From Patescibacteria group bacterium (GTDB taxonomy: Bacteria; Patescibacteriota; Kazan-3B-28): a DNA stretch of 64,000 bases. How positions within the stretch are numbered: position 1 is the stretch's first letter; every line of letters starts with the position of its first letter. Made by a program: the position numbers and the translations under genes. The notes under the pieces were generated by a model. It was given only the letters and a program-made list of their open reading frames with translations, was not told where the DNA came from and searched no databases. Positions 1-59,862 of the stretch are shown here, in pieces. The DNA lies in the NCBI GenBank assembly GCA_041649135.1, contig JBAZNQ010000001.1, positions 32,559-96,558 of the forward strand, in the 5' to 3' direction.

Positions 1-10
1 TCAAATATTT

Positions 11-105
11 ATACGATTCTGGATGCGGTCGCCGTGGCGACCTTACCAGAATGACGAGGAGAAAAATAGATTCCGGACTAAATCCGGAATGACAAGGGAG
101 GGGTG
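11..105. repeat. MITE-like palindromic element, GTCATTC/GAATGAC family (attctgg...ccagaatgac; attccgg...ccggaatgac)
   Basis: Inverted repeats visible in sequence. Same family recurs at 5345, 5932-6300, 14263, 15405, 16470, 26395, 30926 and 51945. Confidence 0.55.
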
Positions 106-5856: not shown

Positions 5857-5931
5857 TTATCTTCAATTAAAAGCCGCCCTAAACATAGCCAAAGGGCGGC
5901 TTTTTAATTCCTAATCTATTCCTTAGTTTTC

Positions 5932-6300
5932 CGTCATCCCCGACCCGCTTGCCCGCCTCTGGAGGGATCGGGGATCCAGAAAGAAACAATTAATATTTTT
6001 TTACTGTCTGGATTCCCGCCTACCTGCCCGAAGTGCTACCAGCCCGCAGTAGATACAGCGTTTCTGGCGGGCATCGTTGCAGGCGGGCGCGGGAATGACA
6101 GTTAGGGTTGGGCTAGATCCTTCGACTTCGCTTGGGATGACAAAGAAGGAGAGATTGCTTCCTGCCCGAATCGCTACGCCAGCCCGCAGTAGACACAGTG
6201 TCTCTGGCGGGCGAATCGTTGCGGGCGGGCGTCATTACACTTCTCGCAATGACAAAAAAGAAAGGATGACAGATTAAGGTAGTCCCTCCCCTCGGCAAGC
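5932..6300. repeat. Cluster of MITE-like palindromic elements (GTCATCCCCG...CGGGAATGAC family) with nested inverted repeats
   Basis: Terminal and nested inverted repeats are visible. The small ORFs in the track here are on both strands and likely spurious. Confidence 0.6.
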
Positions 6301-6364
6301 TCGGGACAGGCTCGTTCGTTGGGAATACAAAAAAGCGCCGATTGGCGCCACCACAACTTTTTCA

Positions 6365-6437
6365 TCGCAGATCCTTCCGTCGGCACGTCAACCATAGCTT
6401 TAGCGACGGTGGAAGCTTTAGCGTAGGAGGACTACCC
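6365..6437 (+). ncRNA. Conserved ~70-nt structured element, copy 1 of 3 (GATCCTYCC...TAGCTTTAGCG...GGAGGACTACC)
   Basis: Homologous to 32957-33025 and 42426-42494. The inner stem is CCGTCG/CGACGG here versus CCTTCG/CGAAG in the other copies (compensatory change). Confidence 0.4.
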
Positions 6438-6502
6438 AAACCTATTTCTCTACTCTCTATTCACTATTCACTATCCCTAATCCCTAGATACCAGGCTAGA
6501 TA

Positions 6503-26394: not shown

Positions 26395-26600
26395 CATTAA
26401 GTCGTCATTCTGACAAGCCTCCCTCCCCGTCATTCTGAACTTCTCGTCATTCCAAACCCCTCCCCCGTCATTCTGGCAAGCGCAGCGCATCCAGAATCGT
26501 ATAAAGACAACCTTTTCCTTGTCATTCCGAGCGAGCGTAGCGAGTCGAAGAATCTAGACCGAAGGTCGCTCCGCTAGATCCTTCATTACCATTCAGGATG
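26395..26600. repeat. Tandem cluster of MITE-like GTCATTCYG...CAGAATC/GGATGAC hairpin elements between rpoC and rpsL
   Basis: Four GTCATTC heads followed by inverted tails. Confidence 0.55.
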
Positions 26601-26669
26601 ACAGATGTGAAGAACACCATTCACTCTCCTCTCTATTCTCTATTCACTATTCACTATTCACTATCTCCT

Positions 26670-27753: not shown

Positions 27754-29826
27754 ATGACCGAACGACAATATTCTCTCGACAAAACCCGTAACATTGGCAT
27801 CATCGCCCATATTGACGCTGGCAAAACCACCGTTTCCGAGCGAATTCTTTTTTATACCGGAAAAACTTATAAAATCGGTGAAGTTCATGAAGGTGCGGCT
27901 GTCATGGACTGGATGGAACAAGAACAAGAGCGGGGGATTACGATTACCTCTGCCGCTACGACTTGTTTCTGGAATGATACTCGAATTAACTTAATTGATA
28001 CGCCGGGCCATGTTGATTTTACCGTTGAAGTAGAACGCTCTCTGCGTGTCCTAGATGGCGGTGTCGTCGTATTTGATGGTGTGGCTGGTGTCGAACCACA
28101 ATCTGAAACAGTTTGGCGTCAGGCGGACAAATATTCGGTCCCACGCATTTGTTTTGTGAACAAAATGGATCGCATGGGTGCTGACTTCTATTTCTGCTAC
28201 AAAACTATCCTTGATCGGCTCGGTGCTAACGCTGTGCCGATCCAATTACCAATTGGTGCGGCAGAAACTTTTAAAGGTATCGTCGATTTAGTTACTGAAC
28301 GAGCCTACATTTATCAAGACGATTTAGGCAAAGATATTTTGGAAACTGATGTACCGGATGATTTGAAGGACAAGGTTAAAGAATTTCGTCACAACATGCT
28401 TGAGAAAATTGTTGAGACTGAAGACGCTCTGATGGAAAAGTTTTTGGCTGATCAAGCCATTACCAACGATGAACTAAAGCAGGCCATGCGGGCCGCGATT
28501 ATCGCCGGTAAAATGGTGCCGGTCATGTGTGGTACTGCTTTAAAGAATAAAGGGATTCAAAAACTCCTCGATGCTGTGGTGGATTATTTGCCGACTCCCC
28601 TAGATGTTCCGCCGATTAAGGCCACCGATCCAAAAACTGGCGAGGATATTGAACGGCATCCTTCGGATGATGAGCCATTTACCGCCTTGGCGTTCAAAAT
28701 TGCCACCGACCCATTTGTGGGGAAATTAGTTTATTTTCGAGTTTATTCCGGCACATTAAAGTCCGGCTCTTATGTTTTAAATGCCAGCAAAGGCACCAAA
28801 GAACGGGTTAGCCGCATTTTGCGGATGCACAGTAATCACCGCGAAGAAGTGGATCAAATTTTTGCCGGTGAGATCGGCGCTATTGTTGGTCTAAAAGATG
28901 TTACTACTGGTGATACGTTATGCGAAGAAGCTCATCCCGTCTTACTTGAATCAATTACCTTCCCTGAACCAGTTATCTCAATCGCGGTTGAGCCCAAGAC
29001 CAAAGCCGACCAAGAAAAAATGGGTTTGGCGTTGGCGAAGCTGGCAGAAGAAGATCCAACTTTCCGGGTTACTTCCAACCAAGAGTCGGGTCAGACCGAA
29101 ATTTCCGGTATGGGTGAACTTCACTTGGATATTATTGTTGATCGGATGAAGCGCGAATTTAAAGTTGAAGCTAATATTGGTAAACCGCAGGTGGCTTATC
29201 GTGAAACTATCACTACCGAAGCTACTAATGAGACCAAATACATCAAACAATCCGGTGGTCGCGGTCAGTATGGTCATGTTGTCTTAAAACTCGAACCACT
29301 CGAAACTGGTGGGTTTGAATTTGTGAACAAAATTGTTGGCGGTGTCATTCCCAAAGAATACATTCCGGCTGTTCAGAAGGGGATTGAGGCGGCGTTGGGA
29401 CGCGGGGTGATCGCCGGCTATCCGGTAGTTGATATTAAGGCGACGTTATTCGATGGTTCGTATCACGAAGTCGACTCTAACGAAATGGCCTTCCAAATTG
29501 CAGGTAGTATGTGTTTCCAAGAAGGTGTCCGTAAGGGCAATCCAGTCATTCTCGAACCTATTATGAAAGTTGAAGCAGTTACTCCTGAAGAATATGCCGG
29601 TGATGTAATGGGGGATTTAAACTCCAAACGCGGCCGCATTGAGGGCATGACTGATCGGGCTAATGCTAAAGTGATTCGGGCCTTCGTTCCGCTCGCCGAG
29701 ATGTTTGGCTATGCCACTAACCTGCGCTCCATGTCCCAAGGCCGCGCCTCCTACACCATGGAGTTCGACCATTACGAAAAGGTTCCGGCCAACATTCAGG
29801 CCGAGCTAGTCGCTAAAAAAGGCTAA
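27754..29826 (+). CDS. fusA: Elongation factor G
   Basis: 690 aa; [10 protein letters not shown]-domain. Confidence 0.97.
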
Positions 29827-29831
29827 AAAAG

Positions 29832-29886
29832 AGGCCCAGACACATAGCTTTTGACAGCTGTTGTTATCTTGGGCCTTTTTCTTTTC
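29832..29886 (+). terminator. Rho-independent terminator after fusA (aggcccaga...tcttgggcctttttcttttcg)
   Basis: Long stem plus T-run. Confidence 0.6.
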
Positions 29887-30218
29887 GTGTAGGCATAGTT
29901 CTTGTTTAGCCATGCCTACGGCTGGTGCCGGGTACGCCGTCTTTATGGTACGACCATACCCAGAGTACAGAGAAGATGAGGAGGAAGACCCCCCTGCCAA
30001 CCAATTCTGTGAACACTGCCACTCGCACCTCCAAGTCGATTGATACGTTCACTGTAGCAAAAATATCAAAATTGTCAACCCCAGAGCTACTTACTACTAA
30101 CTTAACCCCAAACAAGCTGGTGCCCATAAAAAGCTAATTGGGCCATGAAATAACTCAAATATCAAGCTCCCCGCCATCCGGCGGGGAGCTTACAAAACCG
30201 CCACCAGAGCCGAAAATC

Positions 30219-30247
30219 TTGACATAGCCCTCGATAACTGGTAGGTT
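30219..30247 (+). promoter_or_regulatory. Candidate sigma70 promoter (TTGACA-17 nt-TAGGTT) driving the fusA-tuf islet genes
   Basis: Perfect -35 with 17-nt spacing; weak -10. Confidence 0.35.
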
Positions 30248-30306
30248 TAGTTTAGCTCATTAGGCAGACCTTGCTATTAAGCGGGCTGACCACAAAGGAG
30301 AAAAAA

Positions 30307-30396
30307 ATGGGCAACACAATCAAAGTGCACATTCCCAATAATGACGAGGCGTACGTCCTCAGCAAACTCGGCCGAACATTCTCTACGAGTTGCTAG
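30307..30396 (+). CDS. 29-aa ORF (MGNTIKVHIPNNDEAYVLSKLGRTFSTSC) with a canonical Shine-Dalgarno, ending in a TAG that is in frame with the next ORF
   Basis: SD aaaggag lies 7 nt upstream. The GC-rich codon usage differs from the host genes. Confidence 0.35.
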   Translation: MGNTIKVHIPNNDEAYVLSKLGRTFSTSC

Positions 30397-30840
30397 ATGG
30401 ACGGCAGCCGCTATATGCTGGCGAGCGCCGGTGTGGTGGAGGCTGTTATATCGGCGTTAAAGGCGATAGGCGTCGAGATACTGTATGTCACCGAACTTGT
30501 AAAGGTGCCTGAGTCGCTTGTCACCCGCCTACCCGCAGGATCTCTCCACCTGGCAGGCGATCGGGTTCATCTCTCCCCATCGATGAAAGCCGGGGAATAC
30601 ATAGCAAAAGCCAAGGATCTTGATGCTCTCAGGGAGGGCCTTGCCGCTGCCGGGATCCGCTCCATTACGGAGCACCACTCGGCTGACAAGATCACTGATC
30701 TCCTCATCACGGACGACCATTCTGATGGCAGCGACTCCACTAACGATGTGGACGACACCGGTACTGATGGGGGAGGGGGCGACAACACCTCATGGTCAGA
30801 TAACGACGACGACACCGGTACGGACCACACACCGGCCTAG
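30397..30840 (+). CDS. 147-aa protein of unknown function: ~100-aa N-terminal domain plus a poly-acidic D/T/G-rich disordered tail (DDHSDGSDSTNDVDDTGTDGGGGDNTSWSDNDDDTGTD)
   Basis: ~58% GC versus ~42% for flanking genes. The ATG is immediately after the upstream TAG, in the same frame. A terminator follows. Confidence 0.5.
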   Translation: MDGSRYMLASAGVVEAVISALKAIGVEILYVTELVKVPESLVTRLPAGSLHLAGDRVHLSPSMKAGEYIAKAKDLDALREGLAAAGIRSITEHHSADKITDLLITDDHSDGSDSTNDVDDTGTDGGGGDNTSWSDNDDDTGTDHTPA

Positions 30841-30875
30841 TCTCGTTTCGAGACTCAAAACCTAGTACCTACCCA

Positions 30876-30903
30876 GGCCGCGGAACTCTCCGCGGCCTTT
30901 CTC
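30876..30903 (+). terminator. Rho-independent terminator (ggccgcggaactctccgcggcctttctc)
   Basis: 8-bp GC stem plus T-run. Confidence 0.6.
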
Positions 30904-30925
30904 ATATGGAGAAGCCCCTTATTGT

Positions 30926-30993
30926 GTCATTCTGGGGAGCCCCACAGGGCGACGCCAGAATCTTATATACGATTCTGGACAAGCCAGAATGAC
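30926..30993. repeat. MITE-like GTCATTCTGG...CCAGAATGAC element
   Basis: Inverted termini. Related to the copy at 11-66. Confidence 0.55.
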
Positions 30994-31194
30994 GGAGCAA
31001 CGGTTGTTGACACCTCGCTCAAGATGACCAAAATATGAGGGACCACCTTCCCCCAGATTGGTTAGATTGGATTAAATTGGATAAATTGGTTAGATTTTCT
31101 CAAAAAACCCTTGCTTTATCCTCCGAATTTAGGTATTTTCTAAAAGTATCACTTTTTACACCTATACTAATCTGTAAAGTTTTTAGAGGGACTT

Positions 31195-32382
31195 ATGGCT
31201 GAAACATTTAAGCGCGATAAGGTTCACGTTAACGTCGGCACCATCGGCCACGTTGACCATGGTAAGACCACTCTGACTGCCGCTATCACTCAAGTGTTAG
31301 CTAGTAAGGGTTTGGCCACTGCCCGCAAGTTCGATGAGATCGATAATGCTCCTGAAGAAAAGGCGCGTGGTATTACCATTGCGACGAGCCATCAGGAATA
31401 TGAGTCAGCGAAGCGTCACTACGCTCACGTTGACTGCCCCGGTCATGCTGACTACGTCAAGAACATGATCACCGGTGCCGCCCAGATGGACGCCGCTATT
31501 TTGGTGGTGGCCGCTACTGACGGTCCGATGCCACAAACTCGTGAGCACATTCTTTTGGCTCATCAGGTTGGTGTGCCTCAAATTATTGTCTTTTTGAATA
31601 AAACTGACATGGTTGACGATCCAGAATTGATCGACCTTGTCGAACAGGAAGTTCGTGACCTGCTCAAGAAATACGAATATCCAGGTGATGAGACCCCAAT
31701 TATTCGTGGAAGTGCTCTGAAAGCTCTGGAAAATCCAACTGACGAAGCTGCTGCCAAACCAATTATGGATTTGGTCGAAGCTCTCGACACCTATATCCCA
31801 GATCCAGTTCGGGCGCTTGATAAACCATTCTTGATGCCAGTTGAAGATGTCTTCTCCATCAAAGGCCGTGGTACGGTTGCTACTGGTCGTGTGGAGCAGG
31901 GTGTCATCAAAGTTAACGAAGAAATTGAGATCGTTGGGATTAAACCAACCATGAAATCGGTTGTTACTGGTGTGGAAATGTTCCGCAAATTGCTTGATCA
32001 AGGTCAGGCTGGCGACAACGTTGGTTTGCTATTGCGCGGTGTTGAGCGTGAGCAGATCGAGCGTGGTCAGGTGATCGCCAAACCGGGTAGTATTACTCCT
32101 CATACCGAATTCGAATCTGAAATTTACGTCTTGAGTAAAGAGGAAGGTGGCCGTCATACTCCATTCTCCAAAGGTTACAAGCCGCAGTTCTACTTCCGGA
32201 CGACTGACGTTACTGGCGAAGTCATTTTGGGCGAAGGCACCGAAATTGTTATGCCAGGTGATACTGCCAAAGTGAAAGTCGTCTTGATCGCTCCGATCGC
32301 TATGGACGAAGGCTTGCGGTTTGCTATTCGTGAAGGTGGTAAGACCGTTGCTTCTGGGGTTGTCTCAAAAATTCTCAAATAA
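31195..32382 (+). CDS. tuf: Elongation factor Tu
   Basis: 395 aa; GHVDHGKTT. Confidence 0.98.
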
Positions 32383-34633: not shown

Positions 34634-34700
34634 ATTAATTTAATAACCAAATATCTTCCCTAATTATTAACTGTTCACTCTTAACTTTTCACTAATTATC

Positions 34701-35549: not shown

Positions 35550-35658
35550 TAAATTAAGTTAATAATTAATAATTAACGGTGAATAATTAGGGAATAAAAT
35601 ATATCAATCGTCGCTTGCGACACCAAAACTATTCACTTTTAACTTTTCACTATCTCTT

Positions 35659-37302: not shown

Positions 37303-37364
37303 ATTTCCCACTACTTATCATTTTTCACTTTTAACTCTTCACTCTTAACTATTCACTATTCACT

Positions 37365-42494: not shown

Positions 42495-42519
42495 AAAACT
42501 CTTAACTTTTCACTCTCTA

Positions 42520-45525: not shown

Positions 45526-45653
45526 CCACTAGGGATTAGCCGCCAGCCACTAATTTTATAGCTTACCAGTCTAAATGACGAAAAGAAAAAAGCTACCGTT
45601 AGGTAGCTACCGGAACTTATCACTTTTAACTTTTAACTTTTCACTATCCCAAT

Positions 45654-45767
45654 ATGAAAGTCCGACCATCTGTAAAACCCATGTGTAAAGATTGCCGCGT
45701 GATTAAGCGGAAGGGAGTCGTGCGGGTAATTTGTAAAACCAAGAAACATAAACAACGTCAAGGCTAA
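45654..45767 (+). CDS. rpmJ: 50S ribosomal protein L36 (37 aa; not in the ORF track because below its length cutoff)
   Basis: [37 protein letters not shown]; TTCACT-repeat leader. Confidence 0.85.
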
Positions 45768-45880
45768 ATAAAGTTAATAATTAACAGTTAAAAGTGAAAA
45801 AATACGGTAAACATTAATTTAATAGCCTAAATATTTTCCTTAATTCTTAACTTTTCACTCTTAACTTTTCATTATCATCT

Positions 45881-48555: not shown

Positions 48556-48658
48556 TTCCCCCTCATTCCTCTCTATTCTCTATTCTCCTCTCTACTCTCT
48601 AACCTCTTCTCTCTACTCTTAACTTTTCACTTTTAACTATTAACTATTAACTTTTCTT

Positions 48659-57640: not shown

Positions 57641-58756
57641 ATGTACCACCACATCGAAAACGAACACTGCCCTATGTCGCACGGGTTTTGTTACCGCGAT
57701 GGAGTGCTGTATGTCACAGTTTTGGAAGCCTATCTTCCAGAACTACTAGAACGGCTACCTCAAGCGGTGGCCAATCTAGTATGCCGTCATCAGGACAAGC
57801 AACGGCTGGGAGAGTTCGGTGGGCTAGACGACTTAAATGGCTATCTCACGGAACCCGTCGGTGGCTATTGCGGTTTTGGCAGATTTGGCGAATCTCTGGC
57901 ATTCTTTCCATCTCCAGAATCTGGCTGGATTGAATTTCGCTACACTATACCAGGTAGTTATGAACAGGCTGTTCCTGGAATGGCGTCGCTGAACTTTTTG
58001 CTGTTCGTGCTGGCCTGGCTCACCAAGCCAGACGGTATTGCCTCGCCTCGAGGCAATCAGCTCGTAATCCGCGAGGGTGGTTCGTATAGCGTCGCGAAAG
58101 AGGTAGGCGATTGGCTTTGGTCGCAACCCATCGTCAATCTTCCCATCGCCCAAGCCATCGCTGAAGTCTATGCGTCTCTACATAGCCAGCTAACTCCCGA
58201 AGAGATTCACCTTGGCCTAGTTAGACCATCTGCCACAGACGTATTGTCTAAGCCTGGCGGTGCAACTGCCAATATCTACGGGCGGTCCATTCATCTTAAC
58301 TACCCTGGCGGTGCTGCCACTGGGCTAGATGCCGAGATGGCTCGCGAGAATCGGGGCTACCGCGTAGTGCCTCACAATGTTGATGTGCCCGCCCAAGATC
58401 TCGGGCTGTTGGTGGGGATGGCGAAGCTTCACGAACTGGTTGAAGCCGGTATCGATTCACAATGGATGAAGTACTACAGCATGTTCGCCACTCAAACCTT
58501 CGTTGAGCCTAACCCCGAAGAAATACCCATCAATCATCCCACCGAGGCTGGTGTCTACGAAGTCCGAGGCGAAGAGTACCTCACGATTGAGGTGTACCAA
58601 CACCCCGTTCTCGGACTTAGCGTCTGGTGCGAGGATGCCGATCGCGGAGTAAATGCGGATACCGAAGACGATGTAGCTGGCCATATCCGAGCCGATATGG
58701 CGGGCATCAACTTCGTGCGACGGCTACGCCCCCTGCAGTCAGGAGGACAAAACTAG
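57641..58756 (+). CDS. Hypothetical 371-aa protein, GC-rich (cassette 5), paralogous to 58996-59862
   Basis: SD aaggaggg. The C-terminal block VPHNVDVPAQDLGLLVGMAKLHELVEAG is shared with the next cassette. A terminator follows. Confidence 0.55.
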   Translation: MYHHIENEHCPMSHGFCYRDGVLYVTVLEAYLPELLERLPQAVANLVCRHQDKQRLGEFGGLDDLNGYLTEPVGGYCGFGRFGESLAFFPSPESGWIEFRYTIPGSYEQAVPGMASLNFLLFVLAWLTKPDGIASPRGNQLVIREGGSYSVAKEVGDWLWSQPIVNLPIAQAIAEVYASLHSQLTPEEIHLGLVRPSATDVLSKPGGATANIYGRSIHLNYPGGAATGLDAEMARENRGYRVVPHNVDVPAQDLGLLVGMAKLHELVEAGIDSQWMKYYSMFATQTFVEPNPEEIPINHPTEAGVYEVRGEEYLTIEVYQHPVLGLSVWCEDADRGVNADTEDDVAGHIRADMAGINFVRRLRPLQSGGQN

Positions 58757-58995: not shown

Positions 58996-59862
58996 GTGCT
59001 CCTTCAAACTCTGGAGTCTAACCACATGACAGATGATAATCTGAGCCTTTTTCACATCAGTCGTCAAAATTGCCCAGCGAATTATCGTCTGGCAATCGTG
59101 GACCCTAGGGTCATCACCGTGCTAGTCCACCGTAGCGTTTGGGAGTCGTTCTGCGAAGACACCAATCGTCGACATAATCCATTGTCACCCATGATAGGCG
59201 GCAATAATATCTTGGGCGAGGAAGTACCATTTATCGCCCCAGGAAGTATCAACGCGCCGTTTGGATATCATGACGGCGTGACGAGGATAGCCTCCGAGGA
59301 TCCACAGTGGGAAACCCTTTGTATTAAGCTGCCAATCGAGAAGAGTGCGAGTGGCGGGAAGGGTAACCACATGTTGGCTTTGGCCAACACTAGAGCAGTA
59401 CTGGTGTCCTTGATGGGGTCTCATTCGACCGCCCAAGAACCCCAGCTGTTGGCCATCTGGCAGATGTCGCTGTGGAACCCAGATTGCAGCATCGGCTGCA
59501 GGATGTCTCAAGCAATTGTTGCCTGGCTTACGGCTTTGACTGTAGAGCAAAGGGCCCGAATTGAAGCTGAAGTCTCGTTAGCGATGCGGACTGCTTTCAC
59601 AGTGATTCGCGACGGTGTCGTTTCACCGATCAGCAAGTCTGCTAGTGGTAAGGTCGGTATGCATCTATCTCATGGGGACAGTATATATTTGTACTGCTAT
59701 GGGACTAATTCTGGCTCTTTGGGCGCAGAATCCATCTCCAAGGCGATGTGTGGCGATCTCTTGCCACACAATATGGATAGCCCATACCAAGCGCTAGTCA
59801 CTGTCGCGGGGTTAGCCAAGCTGTACGAGATTGCCCGTGTGGCACTCTACCCATCAGAGTAG
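58996..59862 (+). CDS. Hypothetical 288-aa protein, GC-rich (cassette 6), paralog of 57641-58756
   Basis: Shared block LPHNMDSPYQALVTVAGLAKLYEIARVA. Terminator at 59883-59915. Confidence 0.5.
   Translation: MLLQTLESNHMTDDNLSLFHISRQNCPANYRLAIVDPRVITVLVHRSVWESFCEDTNRRHNPLSPMIGGNNILGEEVPFIAPGSINAPFGYHDGVTRIASEDPQWETLCIKLPIEKSASGGKGNHMLALANTRAVLVSLMGSHSTAQEPQLLAIWQMSLWNPDCSIGCRMSQAIVAWLTALTVEQRARIEAEVSLAMRTAFTVIRDGVVSPISKSASGKVGMHLSHGDSIYLYCYGTNSGSLGAESISKAMCGDLLPHNMDSPYQALVTVAGLAKLYEIARVALYPSE

What the first reader, a model, noticed from the sequence alone, without database searches (positions are those of the whole stretch)
29830..31000. GC-rich foreign islet splitting the conserved fusA-tuf junction: one reading frame interrupted by in-frame TAG, with poly-acidic tail
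fusA and tuf are normally adjacent. Here they are separated by 1.37 kb containing the following. A fusA terminator. A ~400-bp non-coding stretch with two strong hairpins (gtaggcat…atgcctac at 29888-29921; agctccccgcc-atcc-ggcggggagct at 30166-30192). A near-consensus promoter TTGACA-17-TAGGTT (30219-30247). A canonical SD aaaggag; such SDs are rare in this genome. A 29-codon ORF ending in TAG, immediately followed in the same frame by ATG and a 147-codon ORF. Together these would give a 176-aa protein if TAG were read through. Then a clean terminator (30876-30903) and a MITE-like hairpin. The segment is ~58% GC against a ~42% GC background. The 147-aa product has an unassignable ~100-aa N-domain and a 45-aa tail of D/T/G/S/N (…DDHSDGSDSTNDVDDTGTDGGGGDNTSWSDNDDDTGTD). 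That tail is reminiscent of DNA-mimic or anti-restriction proteins and of SSB-type acidic tails. TAG is a genuine stop elsewhere in the window (rplR, rpmG). So this is either a recent nonsense disruption, a coupled two-cistron unit, or programmed readthrough.
Basis: partly seen in the sequence, partly recalled or inferred. Interest (0 to 1): 0.75.

Follow-up and report, generated by a model that had tools for sequence, protein, structure and literature searches.

The report
Orphan gene cassette between fusA and tuf
A candidate-phyla-radiation (Kazan-lineage) bacterium carries a roughly 680-bp GC-rich insert between its fusA and tuf genes that encodes a small acidic protein with no relative in any database; the insert is real and foreign-looking, but it sits in a spot where related genomes routinely hold different extra genes, so it is an ordinary kind of event with an unknown product.

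Summary
fusA (27754-29826) and tuf (31195-32382) are 1,368 nt apart. A 29-codon ORF (30307-30396, strong SD) ends in TAG and is followed in frame by ATG and a 147-codon ORF (30397-30840, 58% GC against a 45% window mean).

Four assemblies, including a 99%-identical sister strain, carry the same sequence and the same TAG, so it is not an artefact. ORF147 shows coding three-base periodicity but foreign codon usage. It matches nothing in 5.8 billion proteins, an exhaustive 1.84-billion-representative HMMER scan, Pfam, PHROGs, PADLOC, NCBIfam or PDB.

The closest relatives (EF-G 83-94% identical) have fusA-tuf spacers of 200-2,050 nt, either empty or holding unrelated genes. Only the fusA end and a ~100-nt tuf promoter/leader are conserved. 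The ancestral post-fusA box and hairpin (30108-30191) and the ancestral fusA terminator (30875-30907) now flank the cassette, which fixes its boundaries.

TAG is a normal stop here (rplT, infC, infA, ORF147 itself). The window has no tRNA-CUA, and the fused protein folds worse in AF2. I read the unit as an acquired orphan cassette translated as an SD-led leader ORF coupled to ORF147 at UAGAUG. The DNA-mimic and SSB-tail ideas are unsupported. Interest is modest.

The parts
27754..29826 (+). fusA (EF-G, 690 aa): left conserved boundary of the variable site
   Evidence: Pfam EF-G domains. 83-94% identical to EF-G of Kazan-lineage relatives.
29825..29893 (+). Current fusA intrinsic terminator: long hairpin followed by TTTTTCTTTT. 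It is flanked by an A-run, so it could act in both directions.
   Evidence: I3; dG -25, z -2.6. Not homologous to the relatives' terminator.
29827..30107 (.). Block A: a lineage-specific 281-nt segment between the real fusA stop and the relic fusA end. It includes hairpin 29888-29920.
   Evidence: No match in any relative's spacer. No protein homologs in any frame. Not paralogous to the cassette 5' region (p=0.44).
29906..30127 (-). Possible 73-aa minus-strand small ORF with a hydrophobic C-terminal segment, convergent with fusA
   Evidence: Called by JGI in the sister strain. Three-base periodicity p=0.0025. GC1/2/3 .51/.39/.58 and KD19 1.94. No homologs. Tentative.
30108..30163 (+). Relic of a fusA 3' end (30108-30136, decayed, ends in TAA) plus the ancestral 'post-stop box' (GCCATGAAATAACTCAAATATCAAGC at 30142-30167)
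   Evidence: Aligns to the fusA end and downstream sequence of L086, L087 and L090 (with 0 of 500 shuffles reaching the score, 71, 72). The box is unique in the window.
30164..30191 (.). Hairpin 1 (12-bp perfect stem), at the position of the relatives' first post-fusA terminator hairpin. It has no T-run on the + strand here. It marks the left edge of the cassette.
   Evidence: I5; dG -26.1, z -7.9.
30192..30875 (+). The inserted cassette (~684 nt): promoter-like site, SD, uORF29, ORF147 and 3' UTR
   Evidence: It lies between two ancestral elements that are adjacent in L086 and L093. No DNA match in phages or plasmids.
30219..30247 (+). Promoter-like site: -35 TTGACA, 17-nt spacer, TG (30239-30240) extended -10, -10 TAGGTT (3/6). 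The only SNP against the sister strain (30234 A>G) falls in the spacer.
   Evidence: Read from the sequence. Not called by the consensus scan. SNP. Function is inferred.
30295..30300 (+). Shine-Dalgarno AAGGAG, 6 nt upstream of the uORF ATG
   Evidence: Only 2 of 25 native genes checked have any SD-like motif.
30307..30396 (+). uORF29 (MGNTIKVHIPNNDEAYVLSKLGRTFSTSC*), ending in TAG
   Evidence: GC3 0.667, reached by 1.1% of native 30-codon windows. Periodicity is in phase with ORF147. No homologs.
30397..30840 (+). ORF147: a ~105-aa predicted alpha/beta N-domain plus a 42-aa D/T/G/S/N tail (net charge -14, with an in-frame 57-nt internal repeat DDTGTD...DDTGTD). It has no SD of its own and stops at TAG.
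   Evidence: (D3). Strict orphan. AF2 pLDDT 48.
30875..30907 (+). Ancestral fusA terminator hairpin (GGCCGCGGAAC..CCGCGGCC + TTTCTCATAT), now downstream of ORF147
   Evidence: 87.5% identical to L086 8118-8149. Also present at L088 9891-9918, downstream of that genome's cargo. Fold.
30926..30993 (.). Two inverted units of a native dispersed hairpin repeat (GTCATTCTGG-loop-CCAGAATC-(G)TATA). Not part of the cassette.
   Evidence: (related copies at 10-56 and 26400-26560; the 10-mer occurs 14 times against 3.8 expected).
31093..31194 (+). Conserved tuf promoter and leader (-35 TTGCTT 31111-31116, -10 TATTTT 31134-31139, SD-like GAGG): right conserved boundary of the variable site
   Evidence: 84-91% identical in the relatives that aligned to the window here (L084, L086-L088, L090-L092). 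No conserved secondary structure.
31195..32382 (+). tuf (EF-Tu, 395 aa)

Best explanation
The element is a lineage-specific, horizontally acquired orphan gene cassette of about 684 nt (30192-30875).

Where it sits. It lies in the fusA-tuf intergenic region, which in the candidate-division-Kazan lineage is a hypervariable cargo site. That site is bounded by the fusA stop and a conserved tuf promoter/leader. The cassette landed between the ancestral post-fusA box with its hairpin and the ancestral fusA terminator, and that terminator now ends its transcript.

How it is expressed (inferred). It probably uses its own promoter (TTGACA, 17 nt, TGgTAGGTT). Translation probably starts at a canonical SD, which native genes here lack, and reads a 29-codon leader ORF. 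Ribosomes stop at UAG and restart at the abutting AUG (UAGAUG), giving translational coupling to ORF147, which has no SD of its own.

The product. It is a 147-aa protein with a small, probably alpha/beta, N-domain and a 42-residue strongly acidic, probably disordered, tail. Its biochemical role is unknown; my best guess is a dispensable accessory factor.

Shown: the insertion, its boundaries, its foreign composition, its coding character, its orphan status, and that TAG is an ordinary stop. Inferred: promoter use, coupling, the nature of the product, and the route of acquisition. That route may be homologous recombination through the conserved fusA and tuf flanks, as the low-diversity tract shared with the sister strain suggests.
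For: Real, not an artefact:
- Identical sequence in ENA, Logan and NCBI assemblies.
- Present in a 99.0%-identical JGI sister strain that keeps the TAG, with a single SNP at 30234.

An insertion:
- Relatives with EF-G 94%, 90% and 89% identical have spacers of 402, 200 and 210 nt without it. Others carry unrelated cargo in spacers of 2,053, 1,954, 747 and 572 nt.
- L086's contiguous fusA-end/box/hairpin/terminator aligns to two separated window pieces, 30108-30195 and 30876-30922. For each, 0 of 500 shuffles reach the score.
- The cargo of L087, L088 and L091 lies in the same short interval, and L087's box is duplicated around an orphan gene.

Foreign:
- GC 58% against 45%.
- GC3 0.65 against 0.44-0.47 in native genes.
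- Native-codon log-odds -0.30 per codon, against +0.39 to +0.49 for native genes.
- It has an SD and lacks the native heptad leader motif.

Coding:
- Three-base periodicity 6.83 against 0.75+-0.44, 0 of 2000 shuffles.
- GC2 is the lowest codon position.
- Frame 0 is the best of the three frames.
- The tail contains an in-frame 57-nt repeat.

The uORF belongs to the same unit:
- GC3 0.667, reached by 1.1% of native windows; the upstream control is 0.467.
- Its periodicity is in phase with ORF147.

Coupling:
- A perfect SD precedes the uORF and none precedes ORF147.
- The stop and start are adjacent.
- The UAG and AUG lie in the 3' arm of a hairpin whose 5' arm is inside the uORF (weak, z -2.2).

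Recent spread:
- 1 SNP in 2,111 nt around the cassette against 17 expected, P=6e-7.
Against: - There is no expression data of any kind.
- The -10 hexamer is poor, and the consensus scan called neither the promoter nor the terminator.
- Native genes here initiate without an SD, so ORF147 might not need coupling at all.
- The hairpin at the junction is not statistically distinctive on its own (81-nt fold, z -0.7).
- Both AF2 models are low-confidence, so they cannot settle whether there is one protein or two.
- With no homologs, purifying selection cannot be measured. The only inter-strain SNP is non-coding.
- The donor and the insertion mechanism are unknown: I found no recombinase, target-site duplication or terminal repeats.
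- The low-diversity tract could be a strain-mixing artefact of metagenome assembly.
Confidence: 0.55

Rival explanations
1. A single ~176-codon foreign gene, starting at 30307, suffered a nonsense mutation at codon 30. It is now a pseudogene, or survives only because re-initiation at the adjacent ATG still yields an N-terminally truncated protein.
For: - The only SD serves the ATG at 30307, and ORF147 has none.
- The uORF shares ORF147's frame, GC3 bias and periodicity phase, as expected if both were once one ORF.
- Newly acquired genes often decay.
Against: - An ATG directly after a random nonsense codon is expected only about 2% of the time (3 Met in 147 codons; inference).
- The TAG is fixed in both strains.
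- The fused AF2 model is worse, and the 29 residues are unstructured at pLDDT 25-28 (a weak test).
- No uninterrupted homolog exists in 5.8 billion proteins or 1.84 billion representatives.
Confidence: 0.25
2. The segment is a decaying fragment of foreign coding DNA that is no longer expressed as a functional protein: neutral cargo in a permissive intergenic site.
For: - Strict orphan status.
- Weak -10 and an imperfect terminator T-tract.
- The site tolerates very different content in relatives, including nothing at all.
- An open stretch of 147 codons arises in 5.9% of shuffles at this composition.
Against: - The periodicity is as strong as in native genes, and the 147-codon frame with SD-led start is intact.
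- The cassette is retained with zero coding changes in two strains that differ by ~1% elsewhere, inside a low-diversity tract suggestive of recent spread.
Confidence: 0.14
3. Programmed TAG read-through or recoding (suppressor tRNA, pyrrolysine, or a gene from a TAG-recoded donor such as a code-15 phage) yields one fused 176/177-aa protein.
For: - The uORF and ORF147 are in frame and share a codon bias.
- Both cassette ORFs end in TAG, although only 15% of native long ORFs do.
Against: - TAG terminates housekeeping genes: rplT, infC, infA and rplR.
- ORF147's own TAG is followed 35 nt later by its terminator.
- None of the 8 tRNA genes in the window has a CUA anticodon.
- No Rfam element was found.
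- The fused model is worse.
- An ATG right after the stop is unexplained by read-through.
Confidence: 0.04
4. It is an assembly chimera: a GC-rich fragment from another organism mis-joined into the contig.
For: It comes from a metagenome-assembled genome and has sharp compositional contrast.
Against: - The same junctions appear in four independent assemblies from different sources, including a diverged strain.
- The insert is flanked on both sides, within 1.4 kb, by native and ancestral sequence.
Confidence: 0.02

Closest known systems
Horizontal-gene-transfer hotspots between conserved core genes, and multigene insertions between the concatenated translation operons (Brandis, Cao and Hughes 2019, PMC6735719; the general hotspot concept is from my own knowledge)
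   Same: Variable accessory cargo sits at one chromosomal interval flanked by highly conserved genes. Closely related genomes hold different content. The conserved flanks can serve as homology arms for exchange.
   Different: Here the site lies inside what is a single str operon (rpsL-rpsG-fusA-tufA) in classical bacteria, between fusA and tuf, not between operons. tuf has its own conserved promoter in this lineage. The cargo is a single ~0.7-kb orphan cassette, and I found no integrase, tRNA or mobile-element genes.
Translational coupling by termination-reinitiation at adjacent or overlapping stop and start codons (classical operon examples such as trpB-trpA; from my own knowledge)
   Same: An SD-bearing upstream ORF ends directly at the start codon of a downstream ORF that lacks an SD, and the junction lies in local RNA structure.
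   Different: The upstream ORF is only 29 codons and has no known function. Coupling is inferred, not measured. In this genome most genes initiate without an SD anyway.
Integrative elements that target the 3' end of a gene and regenerate it, leaving a displaced duplicate of the gene end (from my own knowledge)
   Same: A decayed second copy of the last ~30 nt of fusA and its downstream box lies 310 nt beyond the real fusA stop. In relative L087 a 39-nt duplicate of the post-stop box flanks an orphan gene.
   Different: No recombinase gene is present, and the duplicated segments in the window are no longer similar to each other (p=0.31). The enclosed block is only 281 nt, and the ORF147 cassette lies outside that duplication.
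Small Phd/YefM-like protein with an acidic C-terminal tail, encoded between fusA and tuf in other Patescibacteria (found here: L004, L005, L007, L013, L021, L034)
   Same: The same chromosomal position just upstream of tuf, a small protein, and an acidic, probably disordered C-terminal tail.
   Different: There is no detectable sequence relationship. An HMM of that family scores below zero on all six frames of the window spacer, and the family is absent from the Kazan relatives' spacers. The N-domain differs, and the tail lacks the terminal YFE.V motif.
   Same: Only the net negative charge of the product.
   Different: No hit to any such family in Pfam, PHROGs, PADLOC, NCBIfam or PDB. The charge is concentrated in a low-complexity tail and is not spread over a folded surface. 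The tail ends ...DHTPA, not the SSB tip D-D-D-I-P-F (motif from my own knowledge).

Membership tests
Genome-wide TAG reassignment or suppression (code-15-like or pyrrolysine) | TAG is not used as a terminator of conserved housekeeping genes | tested here: not met
   rplT, infC, infA, rplR and 6 other long ORFs end in TAG.
Genome-wide TAG reassignment or suppression (code-15-like or pyrrolysine) | A tRNA with anticodon CUA (and pylTSBCD for pyrrolysine) | tested here: inconclusive
   None among the 8 tRNA genes of the 64-kb window. The rest of the 521-kb contig and genome was not available.
Single gene interrupted by a stop (pseudogene or read-through) | Homologs elsewhere are one continuous ORF spanning the stop position | tested here: inconclusive
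   No homolog of either part exists in 5.8 billion proteins or 1.84 billion representatives, so the comparison cannot be made.
Single gene interrupted by a stop (pseudogene or read-through) | The two parts together form one folded domain | tested here: not met
   AF2 on the fused product gives mean pLDDT 39.3, with residues 1-30 at 25-28 and no secondary structure. ORF147 alone gives 48.0. Both are single-sequence models, so this is weak evidence.
Patescibacterial fusA-tuf Phd/YefM-like small protein | N-terminal motif KKTGDRIIVFD...FVVM..EYE.L (sub-threshold PF02604 match) | tested here: not met
   A family HMM against the six-frame translation of 29827-31194 gives best scores below 0 bits. 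Pfam finds nothing for the uORF+ORF147 product even at E<=10.
SSB-type acidic tail | OB-fold SSB domain plus a C-terminal acidic tip ending in a hydrophobic IPF-like motif | tested here: not met
   No Pfam or NCBIfam SSB hit. The tail ends DTGTDHTPA.
Anti-restriction and DNA-mimic proteins (ArdA, Ocr and similar) | Sequence or fold match to a known mimic family | tested here: not met
   Zero hits in Pfam, PHROGs, PADLOC, NCBIfam and PDB sequences. Foldseek against PDB gives no match with E<=0.001 and TM<=0.34, on a low-confidence model.
MITE/REP-like dispersed repeat (the hairpin at 30926-30993) | Several related copies at intergenic sites, with terminal inverted repeats | tested here: met
   Related units at window 10-56, 26400-26560 and 30926-30993. 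CCAGAATGAC (<=1 mismatch) occurs 14 times against 3.8 expected. Stable hairpin, z -6.2.
MITE/REP-like dispersed repeat (the hairpin at 30926-30993) | Target-site duplication and an empty site in a relative | tested here: inconclusive
   L086 has only ~20 nt where the window has 30923-31092, so there is an insertion, but I could not identify a target-site duplication.
Sigma-70-type promoter | Both hexamers close to consensus at 16-18 nt spacing | tested here: inconclusive
   -35 matches 6/6, the spacer is 17 nt, and -10 matches 3/6 with an upstream TG. The site fell below the scan's threshold.
Intrinsic terminator (30875-30907) | GC-rich stem-loop followed by a U-run | tested here: inconclusive
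   10-bp GC-rich stem, dG -23.3. The tail TTTCTCATAT was not called by the scan. The L086 homolog has TTTTTCATAT.
Integrative element at a gene 3' end | Recombinase gene plus direct att repeats flanking the element | tested here: not met
   No ORF with any family hit lies in the spacer. The window's fusA end and the relic are not significantly similar to each other. The relic is recognisable only through the relatives.

The most novel reading that the evidence does not exclude
The short interval just downstream of the fusA stop in Kazan-lineage (and perhaps other CPR) genomes may be a dedicated capture site. It comprises the conserved post-stop box (TAA-TTAnGCCACAAAATA..TCAAGC) and a hairpin. 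Single-gene cassettes, often orphans, would be inserted there repeatedly by an unrecognised recombination mechanism, leaving duplicated copies of the box or of the fusA end. ORF147 would then be one such cassette, placed next to the elongation-factor genes for co-expression. Its acidic-tailed product would act on the translation apparatus, paralleling the acidic-tailed Phd-like protein at the same position in other Patescibacteria.
Probability: 0.1. Interest if true: 0.65.

Novelty: new member of a known kind. Interest (0 to 1): 0.3.

Why it matters
On my reading this is one more lineage-specific orphan gene in a variable intergenic site, which is common in candidate-phyla-radiation genomes and not surprising in itself.

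Three points have some wider value:
- **The junction is not fixed.** The fusA-tuf junction is treated as fixed in most bacteria, yet it is an open cargo site in Patescibacteria. tuf has its own conserved promoter there, which matters for operon-based annotation and for marker-gene synteny.
- **Repeated use of one interval.** The same ~70-nt interval has been used repeatedly, with duplicated flank sequence in two genomes. This hints at a non-random insertion process that could be tested as more Kazan genomes appear.
- **A contrast in translation signals.** The cassette carries a canonical SD in a genome whose own genes use heptad-repeat leaders instead. That makes it a natural test case for how such bacteria translate foreign genes.

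The product's function remains unknown.

Tried and rejected
1. **uORF29 as a remnant of the CPR Phd/YefM-like spacer gene.** By eye, 'KKMGNTIKVHI' resembles 'KKTGDRIIVFD'. Rejected: the family HMM scores below zero in all six frames.
2. **Block A and the cassette 5' region as a decayed tandem duplication.** The hint came from the repeat finder D4/D5. Rejected: local alignment gives p=0.44.
3. **The window's own fusA end as a direct repeat of the relic.** Not significant (p=0.31). The relic is recognisable only through the relatives.
4. **The cassette as a fragment of a known gene read in another frame or strand.** No hits for any alternative-frame ORF. No blastn hits in phages or plasmids.
5. 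**An RNA gene or riboswitch in the spacer.** The Rfam E-value scan gave only chance-level matches, the best being 21 bits against a 95-bit threshold.
6. **Structure-based function.** Both AF2 models are low-confidence, and Foldseek against PDB gave nothing.
7. **A conserved RNA structure in the tuf leader.** None found, and no covariation.
8. **Wider sampling.** A metagenome scan with the tuf-leader 21-mer returned a single contig of the L086 type. The genome-contig scan with EF-G returned only distant relatives, <=70% identical.
9. **Inverted repeat 30229-30248 / 30858-30877 as cassette termini.** It is only 70% complementary over 20 nt (I2), which I judged to be chance.
Full report
**1. The observation**

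- fusA occupies 27754-29826 and tuf 31195-32382, leaving a spacer of 1,368 nt.
- A 29-codon ORF runs from the ATG at 30307 to a TAG at 30394-30396. The next codon, in the same frame, is the ATG of a 147-codon ORF (30397-30840) that also ends in TAG.
- The named hairpins exist and are stable: 30164-30191 has dG -26.1 and z -7.9; 30875-30898 has dG -23.3 and z -4.7; 30920-31000 has dG -36.4 and z -6.2.
- AAGGAG lies 6 nt upstream of the first ATG. Of 25 native genes checked, only tuf and rplO have any SD-like motif.

Some details need correcting.
- The window's mean GC is 45.0%, not 42%.
- Only ORF147 (58.1%) and its 3' UTR (53.7%) are GC-rich. The uORF, 5' UTR and upstream block are 46-49%.
- The -10 hexamer TAGGTT matches the consensus at 3 of 6 positions, though a TG sits at the extended -10 position.
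- The terminator's T-tract is imperfect. The consensus scan called neither the promoter nor the terminator.

**2. It is real and it is coding**

The same DNA occurs in an ENA assembly and a Logan assembly, both 100% identical. It also occurs in the NCBI MAG ('Patescibacteria group bacterium') and in a JGI contig from a sister strain that is 99.0% identical overall. The sister strain keeps the TAG. It differs at a single base (30234, in the promoter spacer) across 29599-31709, where 17 differences would be expected from the downstream rate (P=6e-7). An assembly chimera is therefore excluded.

ORF length alone is weak evidence, because 5.9% of shuffles give an open stretch of at least 147 codons. 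Other measures are strong.
- Three-base periodicity is 6.83 against 0.75+-0.44 in shuffles (0 of 2000). That is as strong as in fusA and stronger than in rpsJ or rpsG. The 5' UTR and the block after the terminator show none.
- GC1/GC2/GC3 is 0.64/0.45/0.65, a coding pattern.
- The annotated frame scores best of the three on codon usage.

The codon usage is nonetheless not native: -0.30 bits per codon, against +0.39 to +0.49 for native genes.

**3. It has no relatives**

None of the following gave anything:
- Pfam, PHROGs, PADLOC and NCBIfam;
- PDB sequences;
- the 5.8-billion-protein collection;
- an exhaustive phmmer scan of 1.84 billion representatives with the fused uORF plus N-domain;
- blastn against phages and plasmids;
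- a search with every alternative-frame ORF of the cassette and the upstream block.

Only the protein itself was ever returned. Rfam gives chance-level matches only. Single-sequence AF2 models are poor: pLDDT 48 for ORF147, and 39 for the fused product with the uORF residues at 25-28. Foldseek against PDB finds nothing.

**4. Comparative context changes the picture**

EF-G identifies the organism as a member of the candidate division Kazan lineage: it is 83% identical to Kazan RIFCSPHIGHO2_01_FULL_44_14, and unnamed relatives reach 94%. The fusA-tuf spacers of these relatives differ widely.

| Locus | EF-G identity | Spacer | Content |
|---|---|---|---|
| L084 | 94% | 402 nt | no gene called |
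| L086, L093 | 90% (L086), 88% (L093, partial) | 200 nt | no gene called |
| L090 | 89% | 210 nt | no gene called |
| L091 | 89% | 572 nt | one doubtful minus-strand ORF |
| L092 | 83% | 747 nt | a 125-aa membrane protein |
| L087 | 89% | 2,053 nt | a 243-aa orphan and an acyltransferase |
| L088 | 85% | 1,954 nt | DUF5678, a 135-aa protein and a 332-aa membrane protein |

None of this cargo resembles ORF147.

Only two things are conserved across these loci: fusA up to its stop, and about 100 nt upstream of tuf (window 31093-31194). That stretch is 84-91% identical in the relatives that aligned to the window there. It holds a TTGCTT-17-TATTTT promoter and a leader with no conserved structure.

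In more distant Patescibacteria the spacer is also long (450-3,560 nt). In six of them it holds a small Phd/YefM-like protein with an acidic tail just upstream of tuf. The premise that fusA and tuf are adjacent therefore does not hold in this phylum.

**5. Boundaries of the insert**

The short L086 spacer reads: fusA end, then a post-stop box, then hairpin 1, then the terminator hairpin, then the tuf promoter. It aligns to two separated parts of the window, and in each case none of 500 shuffles reaches the score.
- Window 30108-30195 contains a decayed copy of the last ~30 nt of fusA with its TAA, the box, and hairpin 1.
- Window 30876-30922 contains the terminator hairpin.

The cassette (30192-30875) thus sits between two ancestral elements that are adjacent in L086.

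The cargo of L087, L088 and L091 lies in the same short interval. In L087, a 39-nt copy of the box flanks the 243-aa orphan.

A second novel block (29827-30107) separates the real fusA stop, which has a new terminator, from the relic fusA end. That block shows periodicity (p=0.0025). It may encode a 73-aa hydrophobic peptide on the minus strand, which JGI's gene caller also predicted.

The 'MITE-like hairpin' (30926-30993) is two inverted units of a native dispersed repeat. Related copies occur at 10-56 and 26400-26560. It lies outside the cassette.

**6. The TAG**

TAG terminates 10 of 67 long ORFs, including rplT, infC, infA and rplR. ORF147's own TAG is followed 35 nt later by its terminator. 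None of the 8 tRNAs in the window has a CUA anticodon. Genome-wide recoding is therefore excluded within the limits of the window, and nothing points to local read-through.

The uORF does belong to the same foreign coding unit.
- Its GC3 (0.667) is reached by only 1.1% of native 30-codon windows, and the 90 nt upstream in the same frame score 0.467.
- Its periodicity is in phase with ORF147.

Two readings remain.
- **Bicistronic unit (about 0.55).** Ribosomes load at the SD, translate the 29-codon leader and re-initiate at UAGAUG. The position of the SD fits this, as does a modest hairpin that buries the junction. So does the low prior (~2%) of an ATG following a random nonsense codon.
- **Nonsense-disrupted single gene (about 0.25).**

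Non-functional decaying DNA (about 0.14), read-through (about 0.04) and an assembly artefact (about 0.02) are less likely.

**7. What it is like and what it is not**

It behaves like accessory cargo in a transfer hotspot flanked by core genes. Insertions between the concatenated translation operons of Proteobacteria are documented (PMC6735719). Here the site lies inside the classical str operon, which in this lineage is split by a dedicated tuf promoter.

It is not a member of the Phd-like spacer family. It is also not a member of the SSB family or any known DNA-mimic or anti-restriction family. The acidic tail is a low-complexity D/T/G/S/N segment with an in-frame 19-codon repeat. Its similarity to calcium-binding Dx[DN]xDG-type loops is a lead from memory, not a tested result.

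**8. Verdict**

The 'interrupted reading frame' reading is undecided and leans towards coupling. The functional analogies are unsupported. This is a new member of a known kind, of modest interest (0.3).

The most novel reading still open is a dedicated cassette-capture site downstream of fusA in Kazan and CPR genomes (probability about 0.1).

Noticed in passing
window, e.g. 145-181, 26640-26662, 34664-34693, 35629-35651, 37328-37364, 42499-42514, 45623-45873, 48616-48652: A heptad-type tandem motif (CTCTTAACTTTTCACT, units ~ACTnTTm) occurs 30 times (<=3 mismatches) against 0.7 expected. It lies in the leaders just upstream of native genes, on the coding strand, in a genome where SD motifs are rare. 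This resembles the TAACTGA heptamer repeats reported upstream of start codons in Beggiatoaceae, Cyanobacteria and Bacteroidetes (PMC4679880). It may be an SD-substitute translation signal in this Kazan genome. The apparent N-terminal extension of rpsL (26598-) is encoded by this repeat, so the true rpsL start is probably the Met of MPTVNQLLK.
   Followed up: partly
L004 3896-4318, L005 7200-7445, L007 7080-7412, L013 5728-6009, L021 8407-8700, L034 4051-4455 (approximate locus coordinates): In six diverse Patescibacteria-like genomes the fusA-tuf spacer carries, just upstream of tuf, a small ORF (81-140 aa). Its N-terminus reads M..QLK..I.L.KKTGDRIIVFD....FVVM.L.EYE.L, with sub-threshold PF02604 Phd/YefM hits (E 1e-6 to 0.01). 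It ends in an acidic tail, often ..YFE.VE. No adjacent toxin gene is evident. A conserved syntenic partner of the elongation-factor genes would deserve its own study.
   Followed up: partly
window 29906-30127 (- strand): A possible 73-aa small protein gene convergent with fusA. JGI called it in the sister strain. It has coding-like GC1/2/3, three-base periodicity p=0.0025, a hydrophobic C-terminal segment and no homologs. A sigma-70-like site (TTGACA-16-TACAGT with TG) lies on the same strand inside it at 30078-30051.
   Followed up: partly
window 29599-31709 versus L002: The two strains differ at 1 of 2,111 positions across the fusA 3' end, the whole spacer and the first 515 nt of tuf, but at ~0.8-1.3% downstream (P=6e-7). 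This indicates either recent recombinational exchange or a sweep of the cassette-bearing segment, with a breakpoint near 31710 inside tuf, or a strain-mixing assembly artefact.
   Followed up: partly
window 31057-31096: Four tandem ~9-10-nt units ATTGG(T/A)TA(G/A)A lie immediately upstream of the conserved tuf -35 element (D1). They are absent from the relatives' spacers. They could be an UP-like or regulator-binding array, or simply slippage.
   Followed up: no
window 5857-6502: A 650-nt GC-rich (51-56%) non-coding stretch contains ~140-nt-spaced direct repeats (6020-6089 and 6158-6231, 85-94% identical) and several '...GGAATGACAG'-type ends. It may be a cluster of the same hairpin-repeat family as 30926-30993.
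   Followed up: partly
window 57641-58756 and 58996-59862: Two further moderately GC-rich ORFs (54% and 52%; 371 and 288 aa), both ending in TAG, have no Pfam match. They may be other foreign or lineage-specific genes.
   Followed up: no
L087 8075-8112 and 9089-9127: The 39 nt directly after the fusA stop (box plus terminator hairpin) are duplicated (90% identical) 1,014 nt downstream, flanking a 243-aa orphan gene. This is the clearest sign that insertions at this site duplicate the flank.
   Followed up: partly
L088 8090-8726: The cargo at the same site in an 85%-EF-G relative starts with a DUF5678 protein (72 aa). It is followed 10 nt later by a 135-aa protein containing a DSGAD motif that, from memory, resembles retropepsin-like aspartyl proteases, and then by a 332-aa membrane protein.
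   Followed up: no
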